NCBI GenBank assembly: GCA_044347755.1
Contig: JBIKUE010000009.1
Span: 1,933 to 65,932 of the forward strand
Direction: 5' to 3'
Source of the DNA: Saprospiraceae bacterium
GTDB taxonomy: Bacteria > Bacteroidota > Bacteroidia > Chitinophagales > Saprospiraceae
Length of the DNA stretch: 64,000 nt
Shown here: in pieces, positions 5,692 to 62,860 of the stretch
How the letters are laid out: each line of letters opens with the position of its first letter
Position numbering within the stretch: position 1 is the first letter of the stretch
Translations under genes and position numbers: made by a program
Notes under the pieces: generated by a model
Told to the model about the DNA's origin: nothing
The model's database searches: none
The model's input: the letters and a program-made list of their open reading frames with translations, nothing else

Positions 5692-5692
5692 T

Positions 5693-5819
5693 GGGAGATG
5701 AGTTAGGAGAGATGAGTTAGGAGAGATGAGTTAGGAGAGATGAGATATGATTTGGGCTCGGGTAATTGATCCATTTTACTAACCCGAGCCCAAATCATAT
5801 CTCATCTCTCCTAACTCAT
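5693..5819. repeat. intergenic word-repeat palindrome, likely a bidirectional terminator between convergent genes
   Basis: A 14-nt word gagatgagttagga is repeated 3x. A 38-nt inverted repeat follows (about 5726-5763 vs 5782-5819) around the core tttgggctcgggt...acccgagcccaaa. The right arm overlaps the stop codon of the minus-strand gene. Confidence 0.8.
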
Positions 5820-7496: not shown

Positions 7497-9734
7497 ATGA
7501 AACGGTTTATTCAGGCCCTGGCCTTTTTTTCTCCCCTTTTCCTGCTTGCCCAAACACCGGAAATACCGCTTACCAAAGGATTACGCATTGAGCAATCCTG
7601 CAAGGTGATCACCAACTTGTATGAAATTCCGGTATCTGCTAACGAGACCTGCATCACCATTTCCGGCGAAAACCTGGTTATCGATTTCCAGGGTGCAGAA
7701 TTGCGCGGCGCACCAACCAATGCTTTGCCCGATGGCCTGACGGGTACCGCCATTGTAGTGAGCGGGAAAAACATCACCATTAAAAACTGTAAAGCCCGTG
7801 GCTATAAAGTTGCTTTATATGCCGAAAACGTGGAAAACCTGGTCATTGAAAACTGCGAATTTTCCTACAATTACCGCCCGAGGCTACGCTCTATCCGTGA
7901 GCGCGAAGACTTTTCCGACTGGCTCAGCTATCACCAAAACGAAAAAGATGAATGGCTCCGATACGGCAGCGCCATGTATCTTAAAAATTGCTCAAAGCCT
8001 ACCGTGCGCGGATGCCGGGTTACCGGATGCCAAAATGCACTGCTCATGACCGGTTGCAATGATGGACTGGTGTACAACAATTTCTTTGTTTTCAACTCCG
8101 GCCTCGGCATCGGACTATATCGGAGCAGTCGCAACAAATTGATGCACAATCGGCTGGACTGGAATGTGCGCGGCTATTCCCATCGGTTTTACCAACGCGG
8201 GCAGGACTCGGCCGGCATTTTGCTGTATGAACAAAGCAGTAACAACACCATCGCATACAACTCCGTTACCCACTGCGGTGATGGGCTCTTCCTTTGGGCA
8301 GGGCAAAGCACAATGGATACAGGTAAGGGAGGCTGCAACGATAACTGGATTTTTGGCAACGACTTCAGCTATGCCCCTACCAATGGCATTGAAGTAACCT
8401 TTTCCCGAAATAAAATCCAGGGCAACGTGCTGCGAGAATGTACCTATGGTATATGGGGTGGTTACAGCTACGAAACCTATATCATGGGCAATTTTATTGC
8501 CGACTGCAAAACCGGTATCGCCATCGAACACGGGCAAAACGATACCATCAGGCAAAACGTGTTCCAGGGCGACAGCGTTGGTATTCAGCTTTGGGCCAGG
8601 GAAACACAGCCATCTGATTGGGGTTATGCTAAAAAGCGTGACACGCGCAGCCGTAATGCCATCATTGACCGGAACGTGTTTCTTTTGACTCGAAAACCCT
8701 TGAAAATCAGCCGCTCCAAAGATATTTCCATCAATGGAGTAAACCTGTTCCACGATTTTGAGACCTTGCTGGAAACCCCGCATCCCAACGAAAACCTGAA
8801 ATTCCTTCGCAATGAAGTGTACGGAACCGTGCCTCAGATCAAAGCCTTGTGGGCACATCCTGAAATAGCTGGTTCTGAAAATGTAAACTTTTCGCATCCG
8901 GGCCAAAAACCGGAAAATCCTTATTCCCCACTGGATATCACCTACGGAGAGTTGGTAGAGCCTGATAGCTTACCCGATGGCATGATTGCAGCGCTGCCTC
9001 GCGGGTTCCCAAAGGGAAGAACCTTTATCATCATGGATGAATGGGGCCCTTATGATTTTCTGCGCCCAATTGCCATATTGGATACCGTAGCGGGTAATAA
9101 GTATTCCATTGCCATTGTGGGGCCATCCGGCAACTGGAGCATAACCCAAACAGAAGGGGTGAAATATATCAGCGCCCGAAAAGGAGTTACTCCACAAACC
9201 ATTACCGTAGACCGCGATCCAGCCTCCAAATCCCTATATCTGGCATTTGAATACACCAGCCCTAAGAGCGCAAAAACAGTATTTGGTGAAGTTGTTCCCA
9301 CCGGCACTAAATACTACTTCACTTTCGACCGGCTGGAACAGAATTTCGACTGGAAAATGGAATTTTTCCGGTACGACAGTCTGTCCGGCAACAAAGCCTT
9401 TGCTACGCCGCCCCTGGCTACCCGGCAACAATCCGAACTTTACTCAGCGTGGTGGGGAAGCCCGGCGCCTGGCGTTCCGGAAGACGGTTTTGCTACAAAA
9501 GCAAGCACAGAATTTGACATCACCCCTGGCATCTACACTTTTGAACTAACTTCCGACGACGGCGTTCGGATGTATCTGGACGACCAACTGGTGGTAGACA
9601 ACTGGGATGTACACGAACCCGAAACCAACGAGATCAGTGTAAACCTGGGTGGCAAACATCGGATCAGGATTGAGCATTTCGATGCCGGCGGTTTCGCTAC
9701 ACTCGATCTCAGGATCAGGAAGAAAAGGAACTAA
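7497..9734 (+). CDS. secreted right-handed parallel beta-helix repeat protein with C-terminal PA14-like domain
   Basis: ORF 7479..9734 (TTG) trimmed to ATG 7497 (MKRFIQALAFFSPLFLLAQ). Reiterated beta-helix turns are visible (NNTIAYNSVTHCGDG, NWIFGNDF, NKIQGNVL). The C-terminus TFELTSDDGVRMYLDDQLVVDNW...HRIRIEHFDAGG resembles PA14. Confidence 0.8.
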   Translation: MKRFIQALAFFSPLFLLAQTPEIPLTKGLRIEQSCKVITNLYEIPVSANETCITISGENLVIDFQGAELRGAPTNALPDGLTGTAIVVSGKNITIKNCKARGYKVALYAENVENLVIENCEFSYNYRPRLRSIREREDFSDWLSYHQNEKDEWLRYGSAMYLKNCSKPTVRGCRVTGCQNALLMTGCNDGLVYNNFFVFNSGLGIGLYRSSRNKLMHNRLDWNVRGYSHRFYQRGQDSAGILLYEQSSNNTIAYNSVTHCGDGLFLWAGQSTMDTGKGGCNDNWIFGNDFSYAPTNGIEVTFSRNKIQGNVLRECTYGIWGGYSYETYIMGNFIADCKTGIAIEHGQNDTIRQNVFQGDSVGIQLWARETQPSDWGYAKKRDTRSRNAIIDRNVFLLTRKPLKISRSKDISINGVNLFHDFETLLETPHPNENLKFLRNEVYGTVPQIKALWAHPEIAGSENVNFSHPGQKPENPYSPLDITYGELVEPDSLPDGMIAALPRGFPKGRTFIIMDEWGPYDFLRPIAILDTVAGNKYSIAIVGPSGNWSITQTEGVKYISARKGVTPQTITVDRDPASKSLYLAFEYTSPKSAKTVFGEVVPTGTKYYFTFDRLEQNFDWKMEFFRYDSLSGNKAFATPPLATRQQSELYSAWWGSPAPGVPEDGFATKASTEFDITPGIYTFELTSDDGVRMYLDDQLVVDNWDVHEPETNEISVNLGGKHRIRIEHFDAGGFATLDLRIRKKRN

Positions 9735-9865
9735 GGGAACACAAAGGCACAAGGGCGCGAAGACGCGAAGGGGTATTATTTGGCTGTGCCAAATAATACC
9801 CCTCTCAATATTTGGCCGCAGGCCAACCCCTTTGCGTCTTCGCGCCTTTGTGCCTTAGTGTTCCC
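9735..9865. repeat. intergenic imperfect inverted repeat (word family ggcacaaagg/gcgaagacgc) with a nested inner hairpin
   Basis: Left arm gggaacacaaaggcacaagggcgcgaagacgcgaagggg pairs with right arm cccctttgcgtcttcgcgcctttgtgccttagtgttccc. The inner hairpin is ggtattatttggc/gccaaataatacc. It starts directly after the stop at 9734. Confidence 0.8.
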
Positions 9866-9875
9866 TTTCCGCCTT

Positions 9876-10361
9876 TTACTCAAATTTGATCTCCACAATA
9901 CGCAGCCGGTGTTTGTTACCCAGGCGGAGTTTACGGGATTTAGTCAGGAACCAGCCAGCACCTGCAGAAGCCAGGGCAATGCCGTACAACTTAGGCACAT
10001 TGATGCTTTTGTCCTGAAATCCAAACCTGCCCACGGTGGTAGCAAAAACCAGGGTGCCCCCTAAGGTATATCCCGCGCCTCCCAGGATACGCCATATGGG
10101 TTTGCGTTGTACTTTAATGCTTTGAATCTCAGGGATTTTTACAGCAAAGTTGTCCAGCATCAGCGTATTGGATTCTGGCAGCATATCGGTAATGGTGCGT
10201 TTGTACCAATAGTCTTCCTTGCCTTCCATACGGAATCTGAGCACATCGCCAATATACAATTTGGTAGTTCGGGCGCGGTTAGCGCGCTCTAGGAGCAGCA
10301 TTTTTTGTCCGGAAACACCGTATGTGGTCAGGCAGAGTAAGAGGAGTAAAACAGGTTTCAT
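9876..10361 (-). CDS. hypothetical protein with signal peptide and C-terminal hydrophobic segments
   Basis: 161-aa ORF. N-terminus MKPVLLLLLCLTTYGVSGQ. Two Gly/Ala-rich hydrophobic stretches lie near the C-terminus. No recognised motif. Confidence 0.55.
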   Translation of the reverse strand: MKPVLLLLLCLTTYGVSGQKMLLLERANRARTTKLYIGDVLRFRMEGKEDYWYKRTITDMLPESNTLMLDNFAVKIPEIQSIKVQRKPIWRILGGAGYTLGGTLVFATTVGRFGFQDKSINVPKLYGIALASAGAGWFLTKSRKLRLGNKHRLRIVEIKFE

Positions 10362-15091: not shown

Positions 15092-15265
15092 GAATTTCCG
15101 ATTTACAACTTCCGATTTCCGATTTCCGAATGGGATTTAGGATTTGCGATTGGGGTAGCAAAGGTATGGTATTTTGCTCGAAACCGGTGGAAATCCCCAT
15201 TCGGAAATCCCCATTCGAAAATCCAATTCGGAAATCGGAAATCGGAAATTGTAAATCGGAAATTC
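15092..15265. repeat. intergenic 40-nt inverted repeat built from the word tccgattt
   Basis: gaatttccgatttacaacttccgatttccgatttccgaat (about 15092-15131) pairs with attcggaaatcggaaatcggaaattgtaaatcggaaattc (about 15226-15265). It is near-perfect and fills the gap between the glmM stop and the DinB start. Confidence 0.85.
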
Positions 15266-16771: not shown

Positions 16772-16962
16772 CAGAAACGTGAGGCATCCCGAATTTTCAG
16801 GTTGCTCCTGTTTGTTTTCTTAAATAGCGTAGCAGACCTCGCAAGAGGTCCCTCATTCACCTAATCCACGGTGCTACAAAGGTTGGACCTCTTGCGAGGT
16901 CTGCTACGCTATTTTAAACGGAACATAAGCCTCTGAAAAATTAGGGATACCTAACGTTTCTG
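16772..16962. repeat. ~190-nt nested palindromic intergenic element
   Basis: Outer arms are cagaaacgtgaggcatcccgaattttcag and ctctgaaaaattagggatacctaacgtttctg. Inner arms are a perfect 30-nt pair: aaatagcgtagcagacctcgcaagaggtcc (16822-16851) and ggacctcttgcgaggtctgctacgctattt (16885-16914). Confidence 0.8.
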
Positions 16963-30712: not shown

Positions 30713-30832
30713 AGGCACAAAGGTGTGTGGACACTAAGGCGCAAAGACGCGAAGGCGCTAAGTGTTAGGTGCGCTTTGCGCACCATATTTTAAACTTCGT
30801 GCCTTCGCGTCTTTGTGCCTTAGTGTAACCTC
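30713..30832. repeat. intergenic nested inverted repeat (same word family as 9735-9865)
   Basis: cactaaggcgcaaagacgcgaaggc (30732-30756) pairs with gccttcgcgtctttgtgccttagtg (30801-30825). The inner palindrome is ggtgcgctttgcgcacc. Confidence 0.8.
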
Positions 30833-30844
30833 GTGCCTTGTAAT

Positions 30845-31447
30845 ATGAAAAGTGTACGGATCATATGCTGCTTTTTATACACGCTTGGAGCCATACCCGT
30901 ATCGGCTCAGGCGCCCTTCTTAACCACTGTGAGTTCCAGATGGCAGGATTCTTTTGTGGAATGGGAATTCTATGCCAGTATGGACGATCCACGCTTGCTG
31001 GAAGAAGGTGACGAATTGCAGGAGGAGCTGTACGGCGAACTCAAACTGCGCTGGTTAAATGTACGCGATGACTGGTCGGAATGGGATTTTGACCTGGGAG
31101 GACAGCGCGGTACGATACGCCAAAAATGGAAAGATGATCCGCAACAATGGGAGCTCCGCACCTACACCGGGGTGGTAATTACCATGCGCACTGCCTGGGC
31201 CGGCGATTTCAAGGAGTGGCGCGTATCTGACAATGATGTCACCCTCAATATCCGGAGTAAATGGTCCAACCAGTTTGATGAATGGCAAGTGCAGGATGCC
31301 AATTATGGAAATTTTCACCTCTATACGCTCCGCGCTCAGGACCCCAGAGATTGGGCCGTAAATGACCAACTTGCCCCCAACATTTCAGAGGAAATGAAAC
31401 TTGCCATGATTTTTCTGGTGATTTATAATACAAGCCCGAAGATGTAA
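30845..31447 (+). CDS. hypothetical secreted protein with about six Trp-rich ~25-aa repeats
   Basis: ORF trimmed to ATG 30845 (MKSVRIICCFLYTLGAIPVSAQA). The reiterated pattern is [RK]xxW...[DQ].xEW.[FLV]: SRWQDSFVEWEF, LRWLNVRDDWSEWDF, RQKWKDDPQQWEL, RTAWAGDFKEWRV, RSKWSNQFDEWQV. Confidence 0.6.
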   Translation: MKSVRIICCFLYTLGAIPVSAQAPFLTTVSSRWQDSFVEWEFYASMDDPRLLEEGDELQEELYGELKLRWLNVRDDWSEWDFDLGGQRGTIRQKWKDDPQQWELRTYTGVVITMRTAWAGDFKEWRVSDNDVTLNIRSKWSNQFDEWQVQDANYGNFHLYTLRAQDPRDWAVNDQLAPNISEEMKLAMIFLVIYNTSPKM

Positions 31448-31720
31448 TGTGGTTAATGTGGGGAATGTGGTTAATGTGGCAGAATGGGGCTGTCTGGCAA
31501 GTCATATTTTTAGTTTTACCGCAGAGAGCTTGATAACCAATATATACCCCTCCGCTTCTCTCCGCCTCTGCGGTAAAAAACACTTCTTAGAAACCCTTGT
31601 AATCGCAACTTAATCCCATTGAGTCTTGGAATAGCCACATACAAAAGCCAAGCGCAACGCCCACATTAACCACATTAACCACATTACGCTCATTCCCCAC
31701 ATTCTCTCATTACCCACATT
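31448..31720. repeat. intergenic element with aatgtgg word repeats on the left and ccacatt word repeats on the right
   Basis: The left arm tgtggttaatgtggggaatgtggttaatgtgg starts right after the stop at 31447. The right arm ccacattaaccacattaaccacatta...ccccacatt...acccacatt ends 8 nt before the next start. An internal hairpin taccgcagag..ctctgcggta is followed by an A-run. Confidence 0.75.
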
Positions 31721-33048: not shown

Positions 33049-33078
33049 TAAGGGTAGGGGTCATTTGATCAACGTGAG

Positions 33079-33187
33079 TTGTCATCCTGAGCGCAGCGAA
33101 GTATCTGAAGATGAGGCCTTGTTTGACACAGATTTTTTATGTAGCTTGGGTGTTGGCCAGATCCTTCGCTACGCTCAGGATGACAAC
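33079..33187. repeat. inverted repeat of the gtcatcctgagcgcagcgaag family (second member)
   Basis: gttgtcatcctgagcgcagcgaagtatctg (33079-33108) pairs with cagatccttcgctacgctcaggatgacaac (33158-33187). Confidence 0.8.
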
Positions 33188-33203
33188 CCGTCGGAATAAT
33201 ACT

Positions 33204-33279
33204 AAATGGCCCAAATGACTTTTAAATGACCCCTAAATGACCCAAATGACTATTTAATGACCCCTAAATGACTCAAAAC
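33204..33279. repeat. tandem aaatgac word repeats
   Basis: aaatggcccaaatgacttttaaatgacccctaaatgacccaaatgactatttaatgacccctaaatgactc. The same word family occurs at 50947-51050 and 58151-58260. Confidence 0.75.
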
Positions 33280-33302
33280 CTCCTTCTCTTGAACATTTCT
33301 CC

Positions 33303-35407: not shown

Positions 35408-35443
35408 ATATCCATTGAACAATTCCCCCAAACCAGAGTTTCC

Positions 35444-35550
35444 CCACATTAACCACATTAACCACATTAACCACATTAACCACATTCCCCACATTAATCA
35501 CATTCCCCACATTAATCACATTCCCCACATTAACCACATTCCCCACATTC
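35444..35550. repeat. tandem array of ~9-10-nt ccacatt words abutting the bcp start codon
   Basis: ccacattaa x4 is followed by alternating ccacattcc / ccacattaat units, ending 4 nt before ATG 35555. All units run in one orientation, with no inverted partner nearby. Confidence 0.85.
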
Positions 35551-36007: not shown

Positions 36008-36116
36008 ACGGTAGACGGCTTACGGTGGACGGTGGTGTTGCTTTTTAGATTCGTTTTAGACTTTAAGTAAGAAAGAAACCTCAAGGGCACCGTAAGCCGT
36101 CCACCGTAAGCCGCCC
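36008..36116. repeat. intergenic inverted repeat built from gacgg/tggacgg words
   Basis: gacggtagacggcttacggtggacggtgg starts right after the stop and pairs with caccgtaagccgtccaccgtaagccgccc (about 36088-36116). Confidence 0.75.
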
Positions 36117-36245
36117 GATATTCAAAAAGTTATTTAGTTTTACGCCCGGACCTGTATGGGCGGCGAAAAGCAGTTGAATGGCGGCTTTTCGTGCTGGCAT
36201 AAGGGGTTCATTTGTCAGCATTTCAAAAATCAACGAACAACATTC

Positions 36246-37241
36246 ATGAAAAAAATCGGAATTCTCCACGGAAAAGAAAGCTCTTTTCCAGAGGCTTTTG
36301 TGGCCCGTGTTAATGCCAAAAATGTGAAAGGTGTAATGGCAGAACCCACCCATGTAGACGAGTTGATGCAGGGTAATCCAACACCTTATGCCGTAATGAT
36401 TGACCGAATCAGTCAGGACGTGCCGTTTTACCGCGCCTATTTGAAAAATGCTGCGCTGAACGGAACTGCTGTACTAAACAACCCTTTCTGGTGGAGTGCC
36501 GACGAGAAATTTTTCAACAATTGCCTGAGCACCAAAATTGGCGTTCCGGTACCCAAGACCATTTTGTTGCCTTCCAAGGAAATGCCGCCTGATACTTCTG
36601 GTCAGAGCTTCCGCAACATGAAATACCCGCTGGATTGGGAAAAAATGATTGACTACCTGGGTGGTTTCCCACTATTCATGAAGCCTCATGCCGGAGGTGG
36701 ATGGAAAAACGTGTATAAAGTAGAAAATTTCGATGAGTTTTTCCGCGATTACAACGAAACCAATACCCTGGTTATGTTGCTGCAGGAAGCCATCAATTTC
36801 GATGCTTACTTCCGATGCTATTGTCTGGGTGGCAAATATGTGCGCATCATGGACTACGAGCCACGTAATCCACACCACCTGCGTTATGTAGCCGATCATA
36901 AAGTGAGCAAGGAACTTCGCCAGCAAATGCATGATCTGGTACTTCGTATCAATCAATACCTCGGCTACGATTTCAATACTGTGGAATTTGCTATTCGCGA
37001 TGGTATTCCTTATGCCATCGATTTCTGCAACCCTGCTCCGGATGCCGATGTCAATTCTGTTGGCGAAGAAAACTTCGAATGGGTAGTGGAAAACGCTGCC
37101 AATATGGCCATCGAAAAAGCCCTTGCCCACAAAGAAGGCGGCAATAACCTTACCTGGGGTCAGTACGTACAAGATTCCGTTGTCGGAAAAATGTCGGCTA
37201 TTGCAACAGAGACTAAGGCTGCCAAAGGCAAGAAAAAGTAG
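36246..37241 (+). CDS. ATP-grasp family protein (substrate unknown)
   Basis: ORF 36156..37241 trimmed to ATG 36246 (MKKIGILHGKESSFPEAF). The size and layout (FMKPHAGGGWKNVYKV ... TVEFAIRDGIPYAIDFCNPAPD) resemble ATP-grasp ligases. The call is by-eye only. Confidence 0.6.
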   Translation: MKKIGILHGKESSFPEAFVARVNAKNVKGVMAEPTHVDELMQGNPTPYAVMIDRISQDVPFYRAYLKNAALNGTAVLNNPFWWSADEKFFNNCLSTKIGVPVPKTILLPSKEMPPDTSGQSFRNMKYPLDWEKMIDYLGGFPLFMKPHAGGGWKNVYKVENFDEFFRDYNETNTLVMLLQEAINFDAYFRCYCLGGKYVRIMDYEPRNPHHLRYVADHKVSKELRQQMHDLVLRINQYLGYDFNTVEFAIRDGIPYAIDFCNPAPDADVNSVGEENFEWVVENAANMAIEKALAHKEGGNNLTWGQYVQDSVVGKMSAIATETKAAKGKKK

Positions 37242-37447
37242 TGTTTGAGTGTTCGGGTGTTTGAGTTGGCGTTCGGCTTGGAATTACCACCAGACTCTGG
37301 GTATTGGTATTGTTCTAAATACCTCTGAAGTATTTAAAAAATAAGGGATGCTAAACAACAAAATACTCAAACACCTTACTGCGGCAGCATAAGACACCTA
37401 GCCGAACGCCAACTCAAACACCCAAACACTCAAACACCCAAACACTC
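37241..37447. repeat. intergenic 38-nt inverted repeat built from gtgtttgag words, ~120-nt spacer
   Basis: gtgtttgagtgttcgggtgtttgagttggcgttcggct (37241-37278) pairs with agccgaacgccaactcaaacacccaaacactcaaacac (37400-37437) with 1 mismatch, plus an extra ccaaacactc. It spans the whole gap from stop to next ATG. Confidence 0.85.
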
Positions 37448-37450
37448 TCT

Positions 37451-38611
37451 ATGTACCCGGATCTTTCCTATCTTTTTCACGACCTTATCGGAACGTCGCC
37501 CGATAATTGGTTGTCTATTTTTAAAACCTTCGGATTTGTACTGGCACTGTCGTTCCTGGTGAGCGCACTGGTGTTCAATATTGAGTTGCGGCGCAAAGCC
37601 AAAGAAGGCTTTTATGTTCCTGATGTGGTGAAAATAACGGAAGGATTGCCGGCTACTATAGGAGAAATCCTGTCGAATGCCGTGGCAGGACTGCTCATTT
37701 TCGGAAAAGGCATGTATGCCTACCTTCATTATGCCGAATTTCGACACGATCCTGCGTCAGTCATTCTCTCTGGAAAGATGCACTGGATTGGCGGTATTCT
37801 GGGCGCCGCTGCACTGGCCGGATTTACCTGGTGGGATGGTCAGCGCCGAAAAATGCCGGAACCAAAGGTTACAGAACGCAAATTATACCCACACGACAGG
37901 CTCAGTGAAATGACCGTAATGGCGGCCATTGGCGGAATACTGGGCGCCAAACTGTTTGATTTGTTCGACAACTGGGAGTCCTTTATTCAAGACCCCATTG
38001 GTTCCTTAGCCTCCGGAGGTGGACTGGCCTTTTTTGGCGGATTGGTGATGGGATTTGTCATGGTAGTCTGGTATATGTGGCGCCATAACATTCCATTCTG
38101 GCCTACTGCAGATGCCGTTGCACCAGCTCTGACTGCCGGCTATGGATTTGGCCGAATTGGCTGCCAACTTTCTGGCGATGGCGACTGGGGTATCGACAAC
38201 CTTGCACCAAAACCCGATTGGATGTCTTTCCTTCCCGACTGGATGTGGGCATACCGTTACCCACACAATGTACTGAAGGAAGGTGTGCCTATGGAAGGTT
38301 GCCATTTTGATTACTGCCGGGAGCTGGCCAATCCCGTATTCCCTACCCCATTTTATGAGGTAGTAATGATGAGCATCATATTTGCCATTCTGTGGTCTTT
38401 ACGCAGCCGCATCAAAACAGTGGGCATGATGTTCTTCATCTATCTGGGACTCATTGCTGTGGAACGTTTCATCATTGAAAAAATACGGGTGAACGTGGTA
38501 CACGATGTGCTTGGGTTCCAATTAACGCAGGCTGAAATTATTTCTATTTGCCTGTTCCTCATTAGTCTGGGTGGCATGGTGTACGTGAGTAAGTTTCGGG
38601 ACAAATCGTAA
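37451..38611 (+). CDS. lgt: prolipoprotein diacylglyceryl transferase
   Basis: 386 aa, polytopic. The motifs GGLAFFGGLVMG, FGRIGCQLSGDGDWG and FPTPFYEVV parallel Lgt signature regions. Confidence 0.8.
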   Translation: MYPDLSYLFHDLIGTSPDNWLSIFKTFGFVLALSFLVSALVFNIELRRKAKEGFYVPDVVKITEGLPATIGEILSNAVAGLLIFGKGMYAYLHYAEFRHDPASVILSGKMHWIGGILGAAALAGFTWWDGQRRKMPEPKVTERKLYPHDRLSEMTVMAAIGGILGAKLFDLFDNWESFIQDPIGSLASGGGLAFFGGLVMGFVMVVWYMWRHNIPFWPTADAVAPALTAGYGFGRIGCQLSGDGDWGIDNLAPKPDWMSFLPDWMWAYRYPHNVLKEGVPMEGCHFDYCRELANPVFPTPFYEVVMMSIIFAILWSLRSRIKTVGMMFFIYLGLIAVERFIIEKIRVNVVHDVLGFQLTQAEIISICLFLISLGGMVYVSKFRDKS

Positions 38612-43235: not shown

Positions 43236-43346
43236 GTGTTTTAGTTGACGTTCGGTTGGGTATGGCCGGGAGCTAATCGATTTTAAGGTTGCTGTTGCCT
43301 CTGAAGCACTAAAACACCAAAACACTAAAACACTAAAACACCAACC
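43236..43346. repeat. intergenic element with gtgttttag / ctaaaacac word repeats
   Basis: The left end gtgttttagttgacgttcgg starts right after the stop. The right end is cactaaaacaccaaaacactaaaacactaaaacaccaacc. Confidence 0.7.
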
Positions 43347-47028: not shown

Positions 47029-47040
47029 TATTTTCAATCC

Positions 47041-49176
47041 ATGCGCCATACCTACCTATCCATTGCGGCTTTCATTATCTTTCTTTCTAATGCCCCACAT
47101 GCCCAAAACATCTGGTTTGTAAACGCTTCAAGTCAGGCTGTTCAACCAAGCGGCGTTTCCTGGCAGGATGCTTATCCCCGTTTGCAGGATGCCCTGCAAG
47201 TGGCTCAATATGGCGACCAAATCTGGGTAGCAGCTGGCGTATACAAACCTACCCAAACAGCACAGAGAGACCTCTCTTTTGTACTGAAAAACGGCGTTGC
47301 CATGCTGGGTGGTTTTGCGGGCACAGAATCCGCTGCTGAACAGCGCAACCCGATCCTGAACCTCACCAGACTGAGTGGCAACATCGGCGATACGGCTATT
47401 GATACCGACAATTCATTTCATGTACTCACGGGTATAGGATTGGATGAACAAACCGTATTAGACGGGTTTGTCATTTCAGACGGAAACTCATCTGGCTCCG
47501 TCAACACAGAATCTGATCAATATGGCGCAGGTATGTTTTTGCTTGGCGCTGAGGGATTGCCTGATTCCCGGCCATTGATTGCAAACTGTGTTTTTGAACA
47601 CAATGAAGCCGGGCAAGGAGGTGGGGGCATTTTTGTCGGACATATTAATCCCTCCGATCCATTTGGCCCGCAGCATTTGGTTAATCCGCGACTGAAGAAC
47701 TGTACATTTTTTCAAAACCGGGGAAATATTTACGGTGGCGGATTAATGAAAATAGGCCCTACGGCCCCCAATGATACCTTTGTACTTGAAAATTGCCGGT
47801 TTACGGATAATTATGCTTTTGCTGCACATGGTGGAGGCGTGCAGATTGAAAAAACAGGCAATTCTACCATTGCTTTTAAGGACTGTATTTTTAAATACAA
47901 CGAAACGCAGGGTGGAAACGGTGGAGGGTTAAATATAACGGCTAATTCAGATGGGGCATTTACTATTTTACTAATCATGCAAGGCTGTACTTTTATTAAA
48001 AATAATGCGGCGACTGGTGGCGGATTTAATATCGATGGCATTATCTATCTCCCTATGAATTATACTATTAATTTATCCATAGAGAATTGCTTGTTTGAGG
48101 AAAATGATAGTAGGAATGAAGCGGGTGGAGCTTATTTAGTTTATATCGGCCGCAATGGGGTTGTAAACGCAACTATCCGTAACAGCCAATTCTTACGCAA
48201 TGTAGCCAACAGTTATTTTGCTACCGCTTTTCTATGCAATGATACCAGTTCAGCTAATGTTTTGGTGGAAAATTGTTCTTTTATCGGCAACAGACAAAGA
48301 AATAATCCTAATAGTTACTTTGTGGCGTATAGCGCGGGTGGCAACAATGTACACAGCCGCCTCAATAACTGTTTATTTGCCAATAATCCTGGCGGGGCCA
48401 TTTTCGCCGGAGGTCATGAAGAAACCAAAGTGCTGACCGAAGTAACCAATTGCACCTTTTACAACAATGGCGCTAATCCGTTCGGGAAACGCTGGTATTC
48501 CTCTTTTAACCAAGCCGGTGCACAGTTTTACAACAAGATGAATTTTTACAACTGCGCCATTTGGGAGCCACAGTCCAAGCATCGTCTGATCTACAATAAC
48601 AACCAAAATAATATCAACGGATTCTGGTTTCGTTTCGAGTATTGTAGTATGAGTCCATTGGTTCCCGGGATAGCCATAATCCCCAACTATAATTTGGTTT
48701 TCGGGGATAGCGTTTACCACAATGTCTACCCTGGATTTGTGGATACCCTGGGTGGAGATTTTCGGCTTGGCCAATGTTCACCGGTTCTCAATAGAGGTAG
48801 CAATGAGGCTGTTGACAGCGCCGGCATTACAACAGACTTTGACGGGCAGGCACGCATCCGCTTTGGTCGGGTAGATTTGGGCGCGTATGAGCAGCAGGAT
48901 TCCTGTGTAATTTCTTCCACGGATGAACTGGAAGCTGTTAACTCCGGTAAACTTTGGCCTAACCCTGCATCACCAGGCAGTCGGTTGCAATGGGAATTAC
49001 CAGAGATATCACAAAAAGCAGGACGGTGGCACTTGCTGGATGCGTACGGACGGCTTTTGATGGAGGGTTCAGATCTGAGCACAGGCATTACTGCCCCAGC
49101 TATACCAGGAATATATTGGGTAATCCTGCACATTGAACAACAAACGATTCAGCGTAAATTAGTGGTGCAACGATGA
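47041..49176 (+). CDS. secreted right-handed beta-helix protein with T9SS-type C-terminal sorting domain
   Basis: 711 aa with a signal peptide. GGG(I/L/F)-type turns are reiterated (GQGGGGIFV, GGGLMK, HGGGVQI, GNGGGLNI, TGGGFNI). The DLGAYE motif is present. The C-terminus is LWPNPASPGSRLQWEL...GIYWVILHIEQQTIQRKLVVQR. Confidence 0.8.
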   Translation: MRHTYLSIAAFIIFLSNAPHAQNIWFVNASSQAVQPSGVSWQDAYPRLQDALQVAQYGDQIWVAAGVYKPTQTAQRDLSFVLKNGVAMLGGFAGTESAAEQRNPILNLTRLSGNIGDTAIDTDNSFHVLTGIGLDEQTVLDGFVISDGNSSGSVNTESDQYGAGMFLLGAEGLPDSRPLIANCVFEHNEAGQGGGGIFVGHINPSDPFGPQHLVNPRLKNCTFFQNRGNIYGGGLMKIGPTAPNDTFVLENCRFTDNYAFAAHGGGVQIEKTGNSTIAFKDCIFKYNETQGGNGGGLNITANSDGAFTILLIMQGCTFIKNNAATGGGFNIDGIIYLPMNYTINLSIENCLFEENDSRNEAGGAYLVYIGRNGVVNATIRNSQFLRNVANSYFATAFLCNDTSSANVLVENCSFIGNRQRNNPNSYFVAYSAGGNNVHSRLNNCLFANNPGGAIFAGGHEETKVLTEVTNCTFYNNGANPFGKRWYSSFNQAGAQFYNKMNFYNCAIWEPQSKHRLIYNNNQNNINGFWFRFEYCSMSPLVPGIAIIPNYNLVFGDSVYHNVYPGFVDTLGGDFRLGQCSPVLNRGSNEAVDSAGITTDFDGQARIRFGRVDLGAYEQQDSCVISSTDELEAVNSGKLWPNPASPGSRLQWELPEISQKAGRWHLLDAYGRLLMEGSDLSTGITAPAIPGIYWVILHIEQQTIQRKLVVQR

Positions 49177-49283
49177 TGAACTATGAACTATGAACGATGG
49201 GCTTGCGCTCGGTGTAATAGGTGATTTTCACTTCATCGAGCGCAAGTTCATCGTCTATCGTTCATCGTCCAACAGTCCATCGT
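49177..49283. repeat. intergenic word-repeat palindrome with conserved core (cttgcgctcgg...cgagcgcaag)
   Basis: tgaactatgaactatgaacgatgg gcttgcgctcggtgtaataggtgattttcacttcatcgagcgcaagttc atcgtctatcgttcatcgtcc. It sits between convergent genes and touches both stop codons. Confidence 0.8.
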
Positions 49284-50803: not shown

Positions 50804-50946
50804 GAAAGCTCGCTGAATGGATGAATGGGCCCGCGAATGTAGACTTAACCTGCAACTGCACCAAAACGAACAGCGTTTTTCCCTACTTTTGTGCTTTCAT
50901 TGCAAAAAGCGGTGGATTTCTAAAGGTCATTAGAGTTATTTAGGAG

Positions 50947-51050
50947 TTCTTTTGGGTCATTTGGGGGTCATTAAGAGTCATTTTAAATCATTCCAAATGA
51001 CTCAAATGACCTAAAATGACTCTTAATGACCCCCAAATGACCCAAAAGAA
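50947..51050. repeat. perfect 38-nt inverted repeat built from aaatgac words
   Basis: ttcttttgggtcatttgggggtcattaagagtcatttt (50947-50984) pairs with aaaatgactcttaatgacccccaaatgacccaaaagaa (51013-51050). catcgttcatcgtt words follow, up to the next ATG. Confidence 0.85.
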
Positions 51051-51091
51051 CCCCACACCGTCCCATCGTTCATCGTTCATCGTTTAATTAC

Positions 51092-58150: not shown

Positions 58151-58260
58151 TGGGAGTCATTAAAGGTCATTTGAGTCATTTAGGGTCATTTGTAAATGGC
58201 ATTAATGACTCAAATGACCTTTAAAATGACTCAAATGACCCTTAACGACCAATAAATGAC
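58151..58260. repeat. intergenic inverted repeat built from aaatgac words
   Basis: gtcattaaaggtcatttgagtcatttagggtcattt ... aatgactcaaatgacctttaaaatgactcaaatgaccc. Confidence 0.75.
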
Positions 58261-60372: not shown

Positions 60373-61425
60373 ATGAGCGAAAAAAAAGACATCCGCACCC
60401 TATCCCTGCCAGACCTTGAAGCAACCTTTGCCGACTGGGGTGAGCCGCGCTTTCGTGCCGGACAAGTATGGGACTGGCTTTGGAGCAAAGGGGCGCCGGA
60501 ATTTAATGCCATGACCAACCTGTCGAAAGCCCTGCGCGCGCGCCTGGCCGAGACCTATGCGCTCAATTCCCTTACCGAGGAAAAAACGCAGCATAGCCTG
60601 GATGGAACCTTGAAAACCCGTTGGCTGACTTACGACGGGCACCGTATTGAAAGTGTACTGATTCCGGTAACGGATGATGACCGCTATACAGTGTGTGTAA
60701 GTACCCAGGTAGGCTGTAGCCTCACCTGTGCCTTTTGCGCCACCGGGCGAATGGGCAGACGCAGAAACCTGGATGCGGCCGAAATTTTTGATCAGGTGGT
60801 TGGTGTAAACCGTCAAAGCATGGAATACTTCGGCAAGCCCATCACGAATGTGGTATATATGGGTATGGGCGAGCCCCTTCTCACTTACCCCAATACCATG
60901 GCCAGTATTGCCCGCCTCACGGCGCCTCCTGAAGACGGAGGCCTGGGATTGGGCGCCCGGCGGATCACGGTAAGTACCGCAGGTATTGCCAAAATGATTC
61001 GCAAACTGGCTGACGACGGGTTTCGCTCCAATCTGGCCCTCAGTTTGCATGCGGCTGACGACACCAAACGCAATGAGATCATGCCCATCAACGAGACCAA
61101 CAACCTCGAGGTATTGATGGAAAGTCTGGAGTATTTCTATCGGAAAACTAAAGGTCGTATCTCTTACGAATACATTGCCTTTCAACAATTTAACGATTCT
61201 TTGGACGATGCCCGCCGGTTGGTGCAACTCTGCCGAAAGCAGTTCCCGGTTAGGGTCAACATCATTGAATACAACCCAATTGGCGGGGTGCCTTTCGAGA
61301 AATCTGACGAGAACCGTCTAAACGAATTCGGTGCTTTCCTGGCCAAAGAAGGCGTAACCGTAACCGTCCGGCGAAGCCGGGGCAAGGATATTGACGCCGC
61401 CTGCGGGCAACTAGCCAACAAGTGA
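60373..61425 (+). CDS. rlmN: 23S rRNA/tRNA (adenine-C2)-methyltransferase, radical SAM
   Basis: 350 aa. It has the FRAGQVWDWLW N-terminal motif, the radical-SAM cluster CSLTCAFCATG, and the C-terminal DIDAACGQL. Confidence 0.9.
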   Translation: MSEKKDIRTLSLPDLEATFADWGEPRFRAGQVWDWLWSKGAPEFNAMTNLSKALRARLAETYALNSLTEEKTQHSLDGTLKTRWLTYDGHRIESVLIPVTDDDRYTVCVSTQVGCSLTCAFCATGRMGRRRNLDAAEIFDQVVGVNRQSMEYFGKPITNVVYMGMGEPLLTYPNTMASIARLTAPPEDGGLGLGARRITVSTAGIAKMIRKLADDGFRSNLALSLHAADDTKRNEIMPINETNNLEVLMESLEYFYRKTKGRISYEYIAFQQFNDSLDDARRLVQLCRKQFPVRVNIIEYNPIGGVPFEKSDENRLNEFGAFLAKEGVTVTVRRSRGKDIDAACGQLANK

Positions 61426-61537
61426 CGTTGGACAATGGACTGTTAGACAATGGACATTGGACTTGGGCTCTGGGTAATATGTAATTACAGCTACAACGAG
61501 CGCAAGTCCAATGTCTAATATCCAACAGTCCAACGTC
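61424..61537. repeat. intergenic word-repeat palindrome with conserved core (ggacaatggac words)
   Basis: gacgttggacaatggactgttagacaatggacattggacttgggctctgggtaatatgtaattacagctacaacgagcgcaagtccaatgtctaatatccaacagtccaacgtc. It starts inside the rlmN stop codon. Confidence 0.8.
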
Positions 61538-61634
61538 CATATCATACGTGGTTTTGAACGAGGATGCTTTTCAATAAATTTGAAATCAAGTACTTGCATC
61601 ACGAAAATCATCAAAATCACGCTAATCACAGTAT

Positions 61635-62020: not shown

Positions 62021-62749
62021 ATGGAAAAAGAAAATTTGGAGCCCAAGAATGGCTCAACCAGAAAACAAAAACAATGGAGTAAAAAACGCGGCGAAAATGC
62101 CTGGACCATGTTCAAGGTTATGGCCGAGTTTGTGGATGGCTTTGAAGTCCTGAACGAAGTGGGCCCCTGCGTATCCATTTTCGGATCGGCCCGCACTAAA
62201 CCGGGTACGGTGTATTACGAACTAGCGGTAAAAACAGCTTCGAGGCTGGTAGAAGAAGGCTATGGCGTGATTACCGGTGGCGGTCCGGGCATCATGGAGG
62301 CTGGCAACAAAGGCGCCTGGATGAAAGGCGGAACATCTATTGGACTCAACATCAACCTGCCTTTTGAGCAGCACCATAATCCGTTCATTGCGCCGGATCA
62401 CAACTTGAAATACCGCTATTTCTTTGTTCGGAAAGTGATGTTTGTAAAATATGCCCAGGCATTCGTAGTAATGCCCGGCGGTTTTGGCACGTTGGATGAA
62501 CTGTTTGAGGTGTTAACGCTCGTTCAAACCAATAAAATTTCGCGCATGCCCATCGTACTCATGGGCGTTGAATTCTGGGAAGGATTGAAAAACTGGATTG
62601 TGGAAATCATGCTTAAGCGTCACCATAATATCCACGCAGAAGATCTGGATCTTTTCCTGGTGACAGATGATGTAGAAGAAGCTGTTCAGTACATCAACAA
62701 GTTCTACGCTCAGGATTCCAGCTTGCTGGAGCCGAATTTTGAGTTGTAG
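62021..62749 (+). CDS. LOG-family protein (TIGR00730; nucleotide 5'-monophosphate nucleosidase / cytokinin riboside phosphoribohydrolase-like)
   Basis: 242 aa. The motifs GGGPGIMEA and PGGFGTLDELFE are present. Confidence 0.85.
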   Translation: MEKENLEPKNGSTRKQKQWSKKRGENAWTMFKVMAEFVDGFEVLNEVGPCVSIFGSARTKPGTVYYELAVKTASRLVEEGYGVITGGGPGIMEAGNKGAWMKGGTSIGLNINLPFEQHHNPFIAPDHNLKYRYFFVRKVMFVKYAQAFVVMPGGFGTLDELFEVLTLVQTNKISRMPIVLMGVEFWEGLKNWIVEIMLKRHHNIHAEDLDLFLVTDDVEEAVQYINKFYAQDSSLLEPNFEL

Positions 62750-62860
62750 ACGATGGACGGTTGGACAATGGACGTTGGACTTGCGCTCAGGGTAGATGAT
62801 GTCTTTTTACTTCATCGAGCGCAAGTCCTACGTCTAACAGTCTAATCCCAACCAACAGTC
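62749..62860. repeat. intergenic word-repeat palindrome with conserved core (closest relative of 61424-61537 and 49177-49283)
   Basis: gacgatggacggttggacaatggacgttggacttgcgctcagggtagatgatgtctttttacttcatcgagcgcaagtcctacgtctaacagtctaatcccaaccaacagtc. Confidence 0.8.

What the first reader, a model, noticed from the sequence alone, without database searches (positions are those of the whole stretch)
37241..37447. Nearly every intergenic gap is filled by a long inverted repeat whose arms are made of reiterated short words
At least 14 loci share one architecture: 5693-5819, 9735-9865, 15092-15265, 16772-16962, 30713-30832, 31448-31720, 36008-36116, 37241-37447, 43236-43346, 49177-49283, 50947-51050, 58151-58260, 61424-61537 and 62749-62860. 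The left arm starts within 0-3 nt of a stop codon, sometimes overlapping it. It consists of a 7-14-nt word repeated 2-5 times with small variations, for example gtgtttgag, tccgattt, aaatgac, ccacatt, ggacaatggac, gagatgagttagga, tgaactatgaac. After a 20-200-nt spacer, the right arm is the reverse complement of the same words, often running up to the next start codon. Word families recur at distant loci: ccacatt at 31.5 and 35.5 kb; aaatgac at 33.2, 51.0 and 58.2 kb; gacgg/ggac words at 14.5, 17.9, 36.0, 61.4 and 62.8 kb; gcgaagacgc/ggcacaaag at 9.8 and 30.7 kb. Arms of 38-40 nt with 0-1 mismatch are far longer than ordinary terminators need. The combination of low-complexity words and strict arm symmetry is unusual. 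It could reflect a REP/MITE-like element family, a hairpin-generating repair or replication process, or unusually elaborate terminators.
Basis: seen in the sequence. Interest (0 to 1): 0.6.

Follow-up and report, generated by a model that had tools for sequence, protein, structure and literature searches.

The report
Gene-less IVS-like word-repeat hairpins
The long hairpins between genes are real. They look like gene-less copies of a little-studied family of palindromic DNA elements whose full copies carry a small "rRNA intervening-sequence" protein gene, they are not ordinary terminators, and they give a testable handle on the old puzzle of short tandem repeats between bacterial genes.

Summary
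This Saprospiraceae-like genome (5.34 Mb) has 655 long inverted-repeat loci, from 1517 repeat pairs against 4 in a shuffled control. It also has about 1300 non-coding tandem arrays of 7-9-nt words.

The arms are not locus-specific. The focal arm (GAGTGTTT words plus the anchor GAGTTGGCGTTCGGCT) recurs at about 38 loci, with unique spacers.

All four PF05635 genes in the genome (23S-rRNA-IVS / Avd-like four-helix-bundle protein) are bracketed by the same word-array arms. One of them carries the focal family. So do 21 of 30 such genes in relatives.

The window's hairpins are therefore best read as gene-less members of IVS-like foldback cassettes.

- **Turnover is fast.** Strains differ by whole-word indels, orthologous sites hold different families, and stem changes are mirrored on both arms.
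- **They are not canonical terminators.** 85% lack a trailing T-run, and there is no G·U over A·C bias on the sense strand.
- **They are not REPINs.** The five RAYT genes carry other REPs.

The means of spread and the role of the protein are unknown. No RNA data could be obtained.

The parts
36156..37241 (+). Upstream gene (ATP-grasp/RimK-like, 361 aa). Its TAG stop (37239-37241) overlaps the first base of the left arm.
37241..37281 (.). Left (5') arm of the focal hairpin: three 8-nt words (GTGTTTGA / GTGTTCGG / GTGTTTGA) followed by the family anchor GTTGGCGTTCGGCTTGG. It is G-rich and C-poor.
   Evidence: About 90 arm copies in the genome.
37282..37396 (.). Spacer/loop, 115 nt, unique in the genome. 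It differs in length and sequence in the 97%-identical-protein relative L009.
37397..37447 (.). Right (3') arm: the anchor complement AGCCGAACGCCAAC followed by four words (TCAAACAC / CCAAACAC). It has almost no G and ends 3 nt before the ATG of the next gene.
   Evidence: A 50-nt identical copy lies at C29:17047-17096, again 3 nt before an ATG.
37451..38611 (+). Downstream gene (lgt-like prolipoprotein diacylglyceryl transferase)
43236..43346 (.). Second member of the focal family in the window. The left arm is 1 word plus the anchor. The right arm is 5 words, with the anchor deleted; the anchor is still present in the G006 ortholog.
5692..5831 (.). GAGATGAGTTAGGA-word hairpin around a conserved core (TTTGGGCTCGGG..loop..CCCGAGCCCAAA). 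Its arm family is shared with the PF05635 cassette at C245. The G031 ortholog keeps the core and loop but has GGACGAT words.
15092..15265 (.). TTTCCGA/TTTGCGA-word hairpin (60-nt arms). Its arm family is shared with the PF05635 cassette at C17:74674-75195, about 9 kb beyond the window's end.
31444..31720 (.). AATGTGG / CCACATT word hairpin with a nested TTTTACCGCAGAG...CTCTGCGGTAAAA hairpin in its spacer. Its arm family is shared with the PF05635 cassette at C62.
35440..35550 (+). Solo tandem array of about 12 CCACATTAA/CCACATTCC words ending 5 nt before the ATG of prxQ, with no partner arm nearby. A 27-nt (3-word) deletion is seen in strain contig L091.
35331..35407 (.). Perfect 38+38-nt palindrome with a 1-nt centre. 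Strain L091 carries a mirrored T:A>G:C change at +/-13 from the centre, plus a complemented centre base.
36008..36116 (.). ACGGTGG/ACGGTAG word hairpin starting right after the prxQ stop. There are 14-nt (2-word) deletions in the left arm only in strains L091 and L093. G031 has 9 words per arm, and G006 has 6 words on the left and 1.5 on the right.
33050..33290 (.). Lopsided GGGTCATTT / AAATGAC element: about 1.5 words after the stop and 7 words before the ATG at 33303. A GTCATCCTGAGCGCAGCGAAG hairpin (33078-33187) is nested inside.
9723..9877 (.). GGCACAAAG/GCGAAGACGC word hairpin (52-nt arms, 87%)
30713..30832 (.). GGCACAAAG/GCGAAGACGC-type word hairpin filling the gap between two + genes
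49174..49283 (.). TGAACTA-word hairpin around the CTTGCGCTCGGTG...CGAGCGCAAG core
50940..51054 (.). GGGTCATTT-word hairpin (50-nt arms, 94%) in a divergent gap, with no stop codon on either side
58151..58260 (.). GGTCATT-word hairpin, 49 nt after the upstream stop and ending 9 nt before the next ATG
61424..61539 (.). GGACAAT-word hairpin around the CTTGGGCTC...GAGCGCAAG core
62749..62860 (.). GGACGAT/GGACAAT-word hairpin around the CTTGCGCTCAGGG...CGAGCGCAAG core, with imperfect outer arms
16772..16962 (.). Nested palindromes without word arrays: a MITE-like CATCCCGAATTTTCAGG family, with an inner 30-nt perfect inverted repeat at 16822-16914

Best explanation
The focal hairpin and most of the window's 'word hairpins' are gene-less (non-autonomous) members of a superfamily of foldback elements. 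Each arm is a tandem array of 7-9-nt G-rich words, often with a family-specific inner anchor. The full-length copies carry a small PF05635 gene in the loop. PF05635 is the '23S rRNA intervening-sequence protein', a four-helix bundle related to Avd.

Shown:
- The arms are dispersed repeat families.
- All four PF05635 genes of this genome, and most of those in related genera, sit between such arms.
- One cassette (C72:13662-14272) has the focal family's words and anchor.
- Closely related PF05635 proteins keep the same word family.
- Word number changes between strains.
- Orthologous sites hold different families.
- The two arms of one locus co-vary.

Inferred:
- The elements spread, by an unknown cut-or-copy route, into positions that already tolerate or contain a hairpin. 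These are mostly gene 3' ends and the loops of older elements. This parallels rRNA IVSs, which replace the tetraloop of an rRNA helix.
- After insertion, the arrays grow and shrink by replication slippage.
- The arms are kept or re-made complementary at the DNA level.
- When transcribed, the long perfect stems should be RNase III substrates, as rRNA IVS stems are. They may cut or insulate transcripts, but that is a by-product rather than the reason they exist.
For: - **Dispersal.** The focal arms hit about 90-110 places in G000 while the spacer is unique. There are more than 100 hits each in relatives G006 and G031. All-against-all clustering of arms gives families of 129, 59, 43, 32 and so on.
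- **Cassette link.** G000 has 4 PF05635 genes. All four are bracketed by inverted word arrays. Arm-like copies number 38, 24, 67 and 9 loci, including window loci 37244-37447, 5707-5822, 31445-31704, 35440-35550 and 15114-15151. In relatives spanning about 10 genera of the order, 21 of 30 PF05635 loci are bracketed by inverted repeats, nearly all of them 7-9-nt word arrays with the same G-rich 5' arm.
- **Protein-word coupling.** The C72 protein is 54% identical to a G017 protein that is also flanked by GTGTTT words. Two further pairs (56% and 46% identity) share their words.
- **Nesting.** ACCACTAAG hairpins lie inside at least 7 of 42 focal-family spacers.
- **Turnover.**
  - Four orthologous gaps hold different families in G000 and G006.
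  - A canonical terminator hairpin in G006 is replaced exactly between its A-tract and T-tract by a 131-nt palindrome in G000.
  - The focal site holds another family in L001 and L010, and plain terminators in more distant relatives.
- **Slippage.** 14-nt and 27-nt whole-word indels separate contigs that are 99.2-99.8% identical.
- **Arm co-variation.** A locus's own partner arm is its best match in 21 of 47 focal-family loci, where chance is about 1-2%. Orthologs show mirrored substitutions and mirrored indels with 100% complementary stems. A mirrored T:A>G:C change occurs between strains.
- **DNA level rather than RNA level.** Sense-strand G.U versus A.C mismatches are 161:157.
- **Literature.** IVSs are stem-loops with terminal inverted repeats and an optional S23p ORF. 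They are excised by RNase III and replace helix tetraloops (PMC4990558).
Against: - No transposase, target-site duplication or clean empty/filled site was found, so mobility is inferred from distribution only.
- PF05635 has no known DNA-mobilising activity, and its link to the arms is purely positional.
- No PF05635 pseudogene remnants occur in hairpin spacers, so derivation by internal deletion is not shown.
- Several abundant word families (GGGTCATTT, AATGTCC, CGCAGAGG, ACGGTGG) have no PF05635 copy in this genome. ACGGTGG has one in G001 and G007.
- PF05635 gene number does not track hairpin density across genomes: there are 9 genes in G022, which has few hairpins.
- A conserved core with wholly different words in two relatives is more easily explained by in-place rewriting than by transposition.
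- Nine of 30 cassettes showed no bracketing repeat at my thresholds, and one (L193) has direct rather than inverted arrays.
Confidence: 0.58

Rival explanations
1. The hairpins are generated and maintained in place, with no mobility. Short word arrays expand by replication slippage next to a pre-existing hairpin such as a terminator core. Intrastrand template switching (fold-back copying, quasi-palindrome correction) then mirrors one flank onto the other, so palindromes grow outward and stay perfect. PF05635 genes simply sit in such regions.
For: - Whole-word indels occur in one arm between near-identical strains.
- Mirrored substitutions and mirrored indels leave the stems 100% complementary, and a mirrored change plus a flipped centre base occurs between strains.
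- The orthologous core and loop are conserved while the outer words differ completely (5.7-kb locus).
- Word copy number changes in parallel on both sides of a conserved terminator-like core (C223:3837).
- There is no RNA-level G.U bias.
- Own-partner similarity is greater than similarity between loci.
Against: - The same 19-nt non-repetitive anchor plus the same words occur at about 38 unlinked loci with unrelated flanks. In-place growth cannot produce that.
- Some families have full-length copies that are 85-90% identical.
- Entirely different families occupy the same orthologous gap.
- The association of arms with one gene family holds across genera.
- This process probably acts on top of dispersal rather than instead of it.
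Confidence: 0.17
2. They are selected RNA elements: unusually long transcription terminators, insulators or mRNA-stabilising and processing hairpins. They are kept because they end or protect the upstream transcript, and possibly mask the leader of the downstream gene on read-through transcripts.
For: - They are enriched at gene 3' ends: 29% of convergent gaps, 11% of tandem and 8% of divergent.
- Many start within a few nt of a stop codon.
- One element replaces a canonical terminator hairpin exactly between its A-tract and T-tract (C151:9711).
- Several cores look like bidirectional terminators (C223:3837 and C2:22821).
- The predicted stems are very stable.
Against: - Only 38 of 260 tandem loci have a T-run after the 3' arm in the sense direction, against 40 of 260 with an A-run.
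- Sense-strand G.U versus A.C mismatches are 161:157.
- 53 loci lie in divergent gaps.
- Hundreds of solo arrays lie directly upstream of start codons.
- Arms of 40-60 bp are far more than termination needs.
- The close relative L010 keeps a canonical terminator next to a word hairpin.
- REP and MITE elements show the same 3'-end bias simply because promoters are spared.
Confidence: 0.13
3. They are REP/REPIN elements mobilised by RAYT (IS200/IS605-like Y1) transposases.
For: - The genome encodes five Y1_Tnp/RAYT-like genes.
- The elements are extragenic, palindromic, high-copy and occur as inverted doublets.
Against: - Each RAYT gene is flanked by its own classical GC-rich REP cluster, none of which is a word arm. 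Examples are ACAAATGTTGGCGCCCCGCTGGGGCT x5 in inverted orientation on both sides at C106:60085-60947, and CCCTGGCCTGAAGGCCAGGG at C154.
- A single word arm is not itself a small hairpin.
- There is no conserved GTAG/CGTC-type tag.
Confidence: 0.04

Closest known systems
Inverted pairs of tandem heptamer arrays in Xanthomonas (GGGAATC) and Nostoc/Anabaena (GGGGAYT); cyanobacterial STRR sequences (Rehm et al. 2015, PMC4692102; Mazel et al. 1990 and Mrazek et al. 2007 from my own knowledge)
   Same: - Tandem ~7-nt G-rich units, about 90% intergenic, frequently as two convergent arrays that can form a stem-loop.
- The same polarity relative to ORFs: the G-rich strand is non-coding upstream of an ORF and coding downstream.
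- Extensive length variation between close relatives at conserved sites (one search compared).
- The only solved PF05635 structure that the focal cassette's protein hits is XCC0516 of Xanthomonas campestris.
   Different: - Here there are many word families (at least 15) in one genome rather than one dominant heptamer.
- Periods are 7, 8 and 9.
- Many families add a non-repetitive anchor or core.
- Most words here cannot form G-quadruplexes, which is the function proposed in that paper.
- No link to PF05635 was made there.
ORF-bearing intervening sequences (IVS) of 23S rRNA (Coxiella, Leptospira; Warrier et al. 2016, PMC4990558)
   Same: - A long stem made of terminal inverted repeats.
- A loop that may carry a PF05635/S23p gene.
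- The element replaces the loop of a pre-existing hairpin.
- Sporadic distribution suggesting transfer, with no known transposase (one search compared).
   Different: - These copies lie between protein-coding genes, not in rRNA.
- Most have no ORF.
- Their stems are tandem word arrays.
- RNase III excision is not shown here.
- I could not check this genome's 23S gene (one search failed).
Intergenic TAACTGA heptamer direct repeats of Beggiatoaceae, cyanobacteria and a few Bacteroidetes (MacGregor 2015, PMC4679880)
   Same: - Tandem heptamers, almost all intergenic.
- They mostly end within a few nt of a start codon.
- They occur in some Bacteroidetes alongside other heptamer arrays.
- Compare the solo CCACATT array ending 5 nt before the prxQ ATG.
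   Different: That work describes one word, direct repeats and essentially no inverted partners. A translational-regulator binding role was proposed.
REP / BIME / REPIN elements with RAYT transposases (PMC3116915, PMC3733652)
   Same: Extragenic palindromic high-copy repeats, biased to gene 3' ends and often in inverted doublets. RAYT genes are present in this genome.
   Different: The RAYTs here are flanked by other REPs. Word arms are not small GC-rich hairpins and carry no GTAG/CGTC tag.
Small dispersed repeats (SDR) embedded in tandem heptamers in Nostoc punctiforme (Elhai et al. 2008, Genome Res; from my own knowledge, cited in PMC3116915)
   Same: Very small mobile-looking cores found inside tandem heptamer arrays and nested within one another, with compensatory changes and no known transposase.
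   Different: Different phylum and different sequences.

Membership tests
Inverted tandem-heptamer arrays (STRR / Xanthomonas type) | Arms are head-to-tail repeats of a ~7-nt unit | tested here: met
   TRF finds about 1300 non-coding arrays, with periods 7 (162), 8 (228) and 9 (278) dominant among intergenic ones. The focal arm is made of 8-nt words.
Inverted tandem-heptamer arrays (STRR / Xanthomonas type) | Mostly intergenic, often as two convergent arrays able to form a stem-loop | tested here: met
   655 inverted-repeat loci, of which 509 lie in called gaps. 542 arrays lie inside inverted-repeat loci.
Inverted tandem-heptamer arrays (STRR / Xanthomonas type) | G-rich strand polarity relative to neighbouring ORFs | tested here: met
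   Read 5'>3' from the gene border into the gap, arrays are G-rich. Counts of G-rich to C-rich are 45:7 (convergent), 55:18 (divergent) and 103:21 (tandem, start side). Rehm et al. describe the same pattern.
IVS-like PF05635 foldback cassettes | Terminal inverted repeats forming a long stem around a loop that can carry a PF05635 ORF | tested here: met
   4 of 4 PF05635 genes in G000 and 21 of 30 in relatives are bracketed by inverted arrays. The focal family's arms bracket the C72 copy.
IVS-like PF05635 foldback cassettes | Gene-less copies derive from gene-bearing ones (shared interior or ORF remnants) | tested here: not met
   tblastn of the four proteins finds no remnants in hairpin spacers, and the focal spacer is unique. 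Only the arms are shared.
IVS-like PF05635 foldback cassettes | Stem cut by RNase III in the transcript | not testable with these tools
IVS-like PF05635 foldback cassettes | Insertion in 23S rRNA helices 9, 25 or 45 | not tested
   The search of my own genome with the LSU rRNA model failed. The copies studied here lie between protein-coding genes.
REP / REPIN (RAYT-associated) | The cognate RAYT gene is flanked by the same repeat | tested here: not met
   The five Y1_Tnp genes are flanked by other, GC-rich REPs.
REP / REPIN (RAYT-associated) | The unit is a 20-40-nt GC-rich imperfect palindrome with a conserved 5' tag | tested here: not met
   A single arm is a tandem word array, not a hairpin, and no GTAG/CGTC tag is present.
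MITE | Terminal inverted repeats | tested here: met
MITE | Parent IS with a transposase between the same repeats | tested here: not met
   Arm pairs 0.45-5 kb apart enclose ordinary genes (protease, DUF1800-like, hisS and others), not transposases.
MITE | Target-site duplication | tested here: inconclusive
   Several focal-family copies read TA-GTG...CAC-TA, but the ends are blurred by the repeated words and others lack it. No clean empty site was found.
MITE | Conserved internal sequence among copies | tested here: not met
   This fails for the focal family: the spacer is unique, and only 10 of 59 loci have a full-length relative. It is met for some other families in the genome, such as the ~500-nt GGAACGCGGATGACGCGG family at 85-90% identity.
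Intrinsic (Rho-independent) terminator | Stem followed by a U-tract in the sense direction | tested here: not met
   38 of 260 tandem loci have a T-run after the 3' arm, against 40 of 260 with an A-run. The focal arm is followed by CTCTATG.
Intrinsic (Rho-independent) terminator | Pairing maintained at the RNA level (G.U tolerated on the sense strand) | tested here: not met
   161 G.U versus 157 A.C mismatches.
DGR accessory protein Avd | PF05635-like gene next to a reverse transcriptase with TR/VR repeats | tested here: not met
   There is no RVT_1 match anywhere in the 96.7%-complete genome.

The most novel reading that the evidence does not exclude
PF05635 four-helix-bundle proteins and inverted arrays of 7-9-nt words form one cis/trans system, a new class of protein-associated foldback element. 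Each protein clade would recognise its own word array, as DNA or as the transcribed stem. This would promote its copying into hairpin loops, or keep the two arms symmetrical. If so, cyanobacterial STRRs, Xanthomonas heptamer pairs, rRNA intervening sequences and these Saprospiraceae hairpins would be one phenomenon with one mechanism.
Probability: 0.3. Interest if true: 0.85.

Novelty: new variant of a known kind. Interest (0 to 1): 0.6.

Why it matters
Tandem heptamer arrays between bacterial genes have been catalogued since 1990 without an accepted origin or function. These include the STRRs, the 'long simple sequence repeats', and the Xanthomonas and Beggiatoa heptamers.

This genome holds a rich set of them: at least 15 word families, about 650 hairpins and about 10% of all non-coding DNA. 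Every resident PF05635 gene sits between the same kind of arms, and related proteins keep related words. That turns a descriptive oddity into testable questions:

- Does the protein bind its own words?
- Do the stems get cut by RNase III as rRNA IVS stems do?
- How do new copies arise?

It also matters in practice. These elements break metagenome assemblies, generate strain-level indels at gene borders, and sit directly on stop and start codons, so they can be mis-annotated as terminators.

The mirrored evolution of the two arms, without an RNA-level signature, points to a DNA-level palindrome-symmetrising process that is of interest in its own right.

Tried and rejected
1. **Chance.** Rejected: 1517 inverted-repeat pairs against 4 in a shuffled genome.
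2. **Known RNA families.** Rfam gives no hit in the window.
3. **Canonical terminators.** No trailing T-run bias and no G.U bias.
4. **REPIN/RAYT.** The RAYTs are flanked by other REPs.
5. **An IS parent.** Searching for arm pairs 0.45-5 kb apart found only ordinary genes between them.
6. **'The words exist to supply stop codons in all frames'.** Stop-trinucleotide density in 5' arms is 0.049, no higher than in shuffled arms at 0.053.
7. **'G-poor 3' arms exist to keep start codons out of leaders'.** This cannot be the whole story. The polarity is just as strong in convergent gaps, and the AAATGAC family carries ATG.
8. **DGR/Avd context.** There is no reverse transcriptase in the genome.
9. 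**PF05635 remnants in spacers.** None found.
10. **Clean empty sites against G006 and G031.** Those genomes are only about 84% identical in DNA. Orthologous gaps hold other elements rather than empty sites, so no junctions could be read.
12. **IVS in this genome's 23S rRNA.** The tool call failed.
13. **Two exact-protein look-ups** found nothing on record.
Full report
**1. The observation**

The focal locus is as described. The TAG stop of an ATP-grasp gene (37239-37241) overlaps the first base of a left arm made of three 8-nt words plus GTTGGCGTTCGGCTTGG. After 115 nt, the reverse complement follows with four words. It ends 3 nt before the ATG of an lgt-like gene.

The arms are 41 nt and 95% complementary. 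As RNA the region folds at -92 kcal/mol, with z = -10.9. Twelve of the 14 listed loci are recovered as inverted repeats, two are lopsided, and one (16772) is a nested palindrome without words.

The window lies in a 5.34-Mb, 250-contig genome. A seed-and-extend scan (arms >=20 nt, >=80% complementary, span <=450) finds 1517 pairs in 655 loci, against 4 pairs in a locally shuffled copy. TRF finds about 1300 non-coding tandem arrays totalling 53 kb, with periods 7, 8 and 9 dominant.

'Nearly every gap' is too strong. A long inverted repeat is present in 29% of convergent, 11% of tandem and 8% of divergent gaps. Genome-wide, 172 of 652 stop-facing sides begin within -10..+3 nt of the stop.

**2. 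Organism and spread**

Flanking proteins place the genome among Saprospiraceae/Lewinellaceae-like Chitinophagales MAGs.

| Genome(s) | Inverted-repeat loci per 100 kb |
|---|---|
| This genome (G000) | 12 |
| G031 | 25 |
| Four other genomes of the same GTDB genus | 3-7 |
| Four other families of the order | 1-4 |

None of the loci sampled from the other families pair in several registers. So this is a lineage-specific bloom.

**3. The arms are dispersed repeat families**

The two focal arms each match about 90-110 places in the genome, while the spacer is unique. They also match more than 100 places each in relatives G006 and G031.

Clustering all arms gives families of 129, 59, 43, 32, 29, 27, 22 and so on, plus 154 singletons. 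In the focal family, every copy has 2-7 words of the GAGTGTTT type, then the anchor GAGTTGGCGTTCGGCTGGG, then a variable interior, then the mirror image.

- Interiors often hold other palindromes. An ACCACTAAG-word hairpin lies inside at least 7 of 42 copies.
- Some other families have full-length copies at 85-90% identity and look like ordinary MITEs.

**4. What they are not**

- **Rfam** has no match in the window.
- **They are not REPINs.** The genome has five RAYT-like Y1 transposase genes, but each is flanked by its own GC-rich REP cluster, not by word arms.
- **There is no IS parent.** Arm pairs 0.45-5 kb apart enclose ordinary genes.
- **They are not canonical terminators.**
  - In tandem gaps, 38 of 260 loci have a T-run after the 3' arm in the sense direction and 40 of 260 an A-run.
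  - Mismatches that would be G.U in the sense transcript number 161, against 157 A.C.
  - Canonical terminators do exist in the genome and in relatives at the same site.

**5. Polarity**

On either strand, the 5' arm is G-rich and the 3' arm C-rich. GC skew is >0.3 in 40-50% of loci and <-0.3 in 3-5%.

Solo arrays obey the same rule. Read from the gene border into the gap they are G-rich, whether the border is a stop or a start. Examples are the 12-word CCACATT array ending 5 nt before the prxQ ATG, and the 7-word AAATGAC array before the ATG at 33303.

Stop codons are not enriched in the 5' arms. Rehm et al. report the same ORF-relative polarity for Xanthomonas and Nostoc heptamers. I have no tested explanation for it.

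**6. Dynamics**

*Contigs from other samples, 99.2-100% identical to the window:*
- Variation concentrates in the repeats. Of 13 differences in L091, 8 lie in about 400 nt of repeats.
- These include a 14-nt (two-word) deletion in the left arm of the 36.0-kb hairpin, seen in similar form in L093.
- They also include a 27-nt (three-word) deletion in the CCACATT array, and a mirrored T:A>G:C change at +/-13 from the centre of the perfect palindrome 35331-35407, together with a complemented centre base.

*The focal site in related genomes:*
- L009 (97% protein identity) keeps the family, with other word variants and another spacer.
- L001 (90%) has a GGACATT-word hairpin.
- L010 (91%) has a canonical terminator plus an AGGAATG-word hairpin.
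- More distant relatives have plain terminators.

*Against G006 (about 84% DNA identity):*
- Four orthologous gaps hold different families.
- One canonical terminator hairpin is replaced exactly between its A- and T-tracts by a 131-nt palindrome.
- One terminator-like core has 4 words per side in G000 and 1-2 in G006.
- Several stems differ by mirrored substitutions and mirrored indels while staying fully complementary.

At the 5.7-kb locus, G031 keeps the core and loop (18 of 22 loop bases, with one compensatory G:C>C:G), but has GGACGAT words instead of GAGATGAGTTAGGA.

Within families, a locus's own partner arm is its best match in 30-60% of loci, where chance is about 1-2%.

**7. The PF05635 link**

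Earlier notes of this scan, made on other phyla, proposed that such hairpins are gene-less copies of cassettes carrying a PF05635 gene. I tested this here.

The genome has four PF05635 genes. All four are bracketed by inverted word arrays.

| PF05635 cassette | Words | Arm-like loci in genome | Window loci |
|---|---|---|---|
| C72:13662-14272 | GAGTGTTT plus the GAGTTGGCG anchor on the left, CAGCCGAACGC-AACTCAAACAC on the right (the focal family) | 38 | 37244-37447 |
| C245 | GAGATAT/GAGATGG | 24 | 5707-5822 |
| C62 | AATGTGG | 67 | 31445-31704, 35440-35550 |
| C17:74674-75195 | TTTCCGA/TTTGCGA | 9 | 15114-15151 |

In 30 PF05635 loci from relatives in about ten genera of the order, 21 are bracketed by inverted repeats. 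Nearly all of these are 7-9-nt word arrays with a G-rich 5' arm.

Related proteins keep related words:
- The C72 protein is 54% identical to a G017 protein flanked by GGTGTTTG/GTGTTTTA words.
- Two further pairs (56% and 46% identity) share TTTCCGA+ATTACATGATTT and ATTACGA words respectively.
- One pair at 48% does not clearly share words.

The C72 protein matches PDB 2GSC, XCC0516 of Xanthomonas campestris, with five chains. There is no reverse transcriptase in the genome, so these are not DGR Avd genes (PF05635-Avd homology from PMC10053308).

Limits of this link:
- No gene remnants are found in hairpin spacers.
- Several abundant families have no resident gene.
- Gene number does not track hairpin density.

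**8. Reading**

The best-supported account is that the window's hairpins are gene-less members of IVS-like foldback elements. Published rRNA IVSs are stem-loops with terminal inverted repeats and an optional S23p ORF. They are excised by RNase III, replace the tetraloop of an rRNA helix, and have no known means of spread (PMC4990558).

The parallels here are the arms, the gene, the loop-replacement case and the nesting.

- **Shown:** dispersal, cassette association, slippage and arm co-variation.
- **Inferred:** mobility into hairpin loops, DNA-level symmetrisation, and RNase III sensitivity of the transcripts.

A purely in-place origin cannot explain a shared 19-nt anchor at 38 unlinked loci. 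In-place slippage and mirror-copying very likely shape the arms after arrival.

A library search found no paper linking PF05635 to heptamer arrays. That library omits most subscription journals.

**9. Gaps**

- No check of the 23S gene: one search failed.
- No junctions of new insertions.
- Gene calls were my own crude longest-ORF calls, so start-side distances are approximate.

Noticed in passing
genome contigs C106:60085-60947, C154:1837-2499, C38:32300-33130, C217:14820-15675, C44:196-717 (outside the window): Five RAYT-like Y1 transposase genes. At least four are flanked by their own REP clusters, for example 5 tandem ACAAATGTTGGCGCCCCGCTGGGGCT units in inverted orientation on both sides at C106. 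These classical REP/RAYT systems coexist with the word hairpins.
   Followed up: partly
window 46976-49255, and the same contig about 65.5-67.8 kb in window-based coordinates (just beyond the window end): Two paralogous 711-aa genes, each followed by a word hairpin. In some strain contigs (L097, L101) the M43-protease neighbourhood is joined to the DHDPS gene that follows the other paralog, which suggests recombination between the paralogs or their hairpins.
   Followed up: partly
window 38958-38965: An 8-nt deletion (CGCATGGC) inside the sensor histidine kinase gene in strain contig L094. It splits the gene into 103-aa and 498-aa ORFs.
   Followed up: no
genome contig C62:1397-2078: The PF05635 gene of the AATGTGG cassette matches only profile positions 4-80. 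It runs into another palindromic repeat (GGATTTGGGATTTGGGCTCC...), so it appears truncated by a nested insertion.
   Followed up: partly
L193 (G028:C1:2623805-2624119 and flanks): A PF05635 gene flanked by AATGGGC arrays in the same orientation on both sides. The arrays are direct, not inverted, which is an exception to the foldback rule.
   Followed up: no
window 20557-20663 and 33078-33187: A separate hairpin family, GTCATCCTGAGCGCAGCGAAGGATCTG ... CAGATCCTTCGCTACGCTCAGGATGAC. It has no words and is found nested inside word elements. The same motif also appears inside the G031 ortholog of the 36.0-kb hairpin.
   Followed up: partly
genome contigs C99:7446-8430, C67:7163-7773, C96:51770-51920 and others: A ~500-nt MITE-like family built of GGAACGCGGATGACGCGGATTTT units in long tandem and inverted runs, with copies 85-90% identical.
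   Followed up: partly
C29:17047-17096 compared with window 37398-37447: A 50-nt identical copy of the focal right arm, again followed 3 nt later by an ATG (CTCtccATG compared with CTCtctATG). The arm-to-start-codon spacing may be constrained.
   Followed up: no
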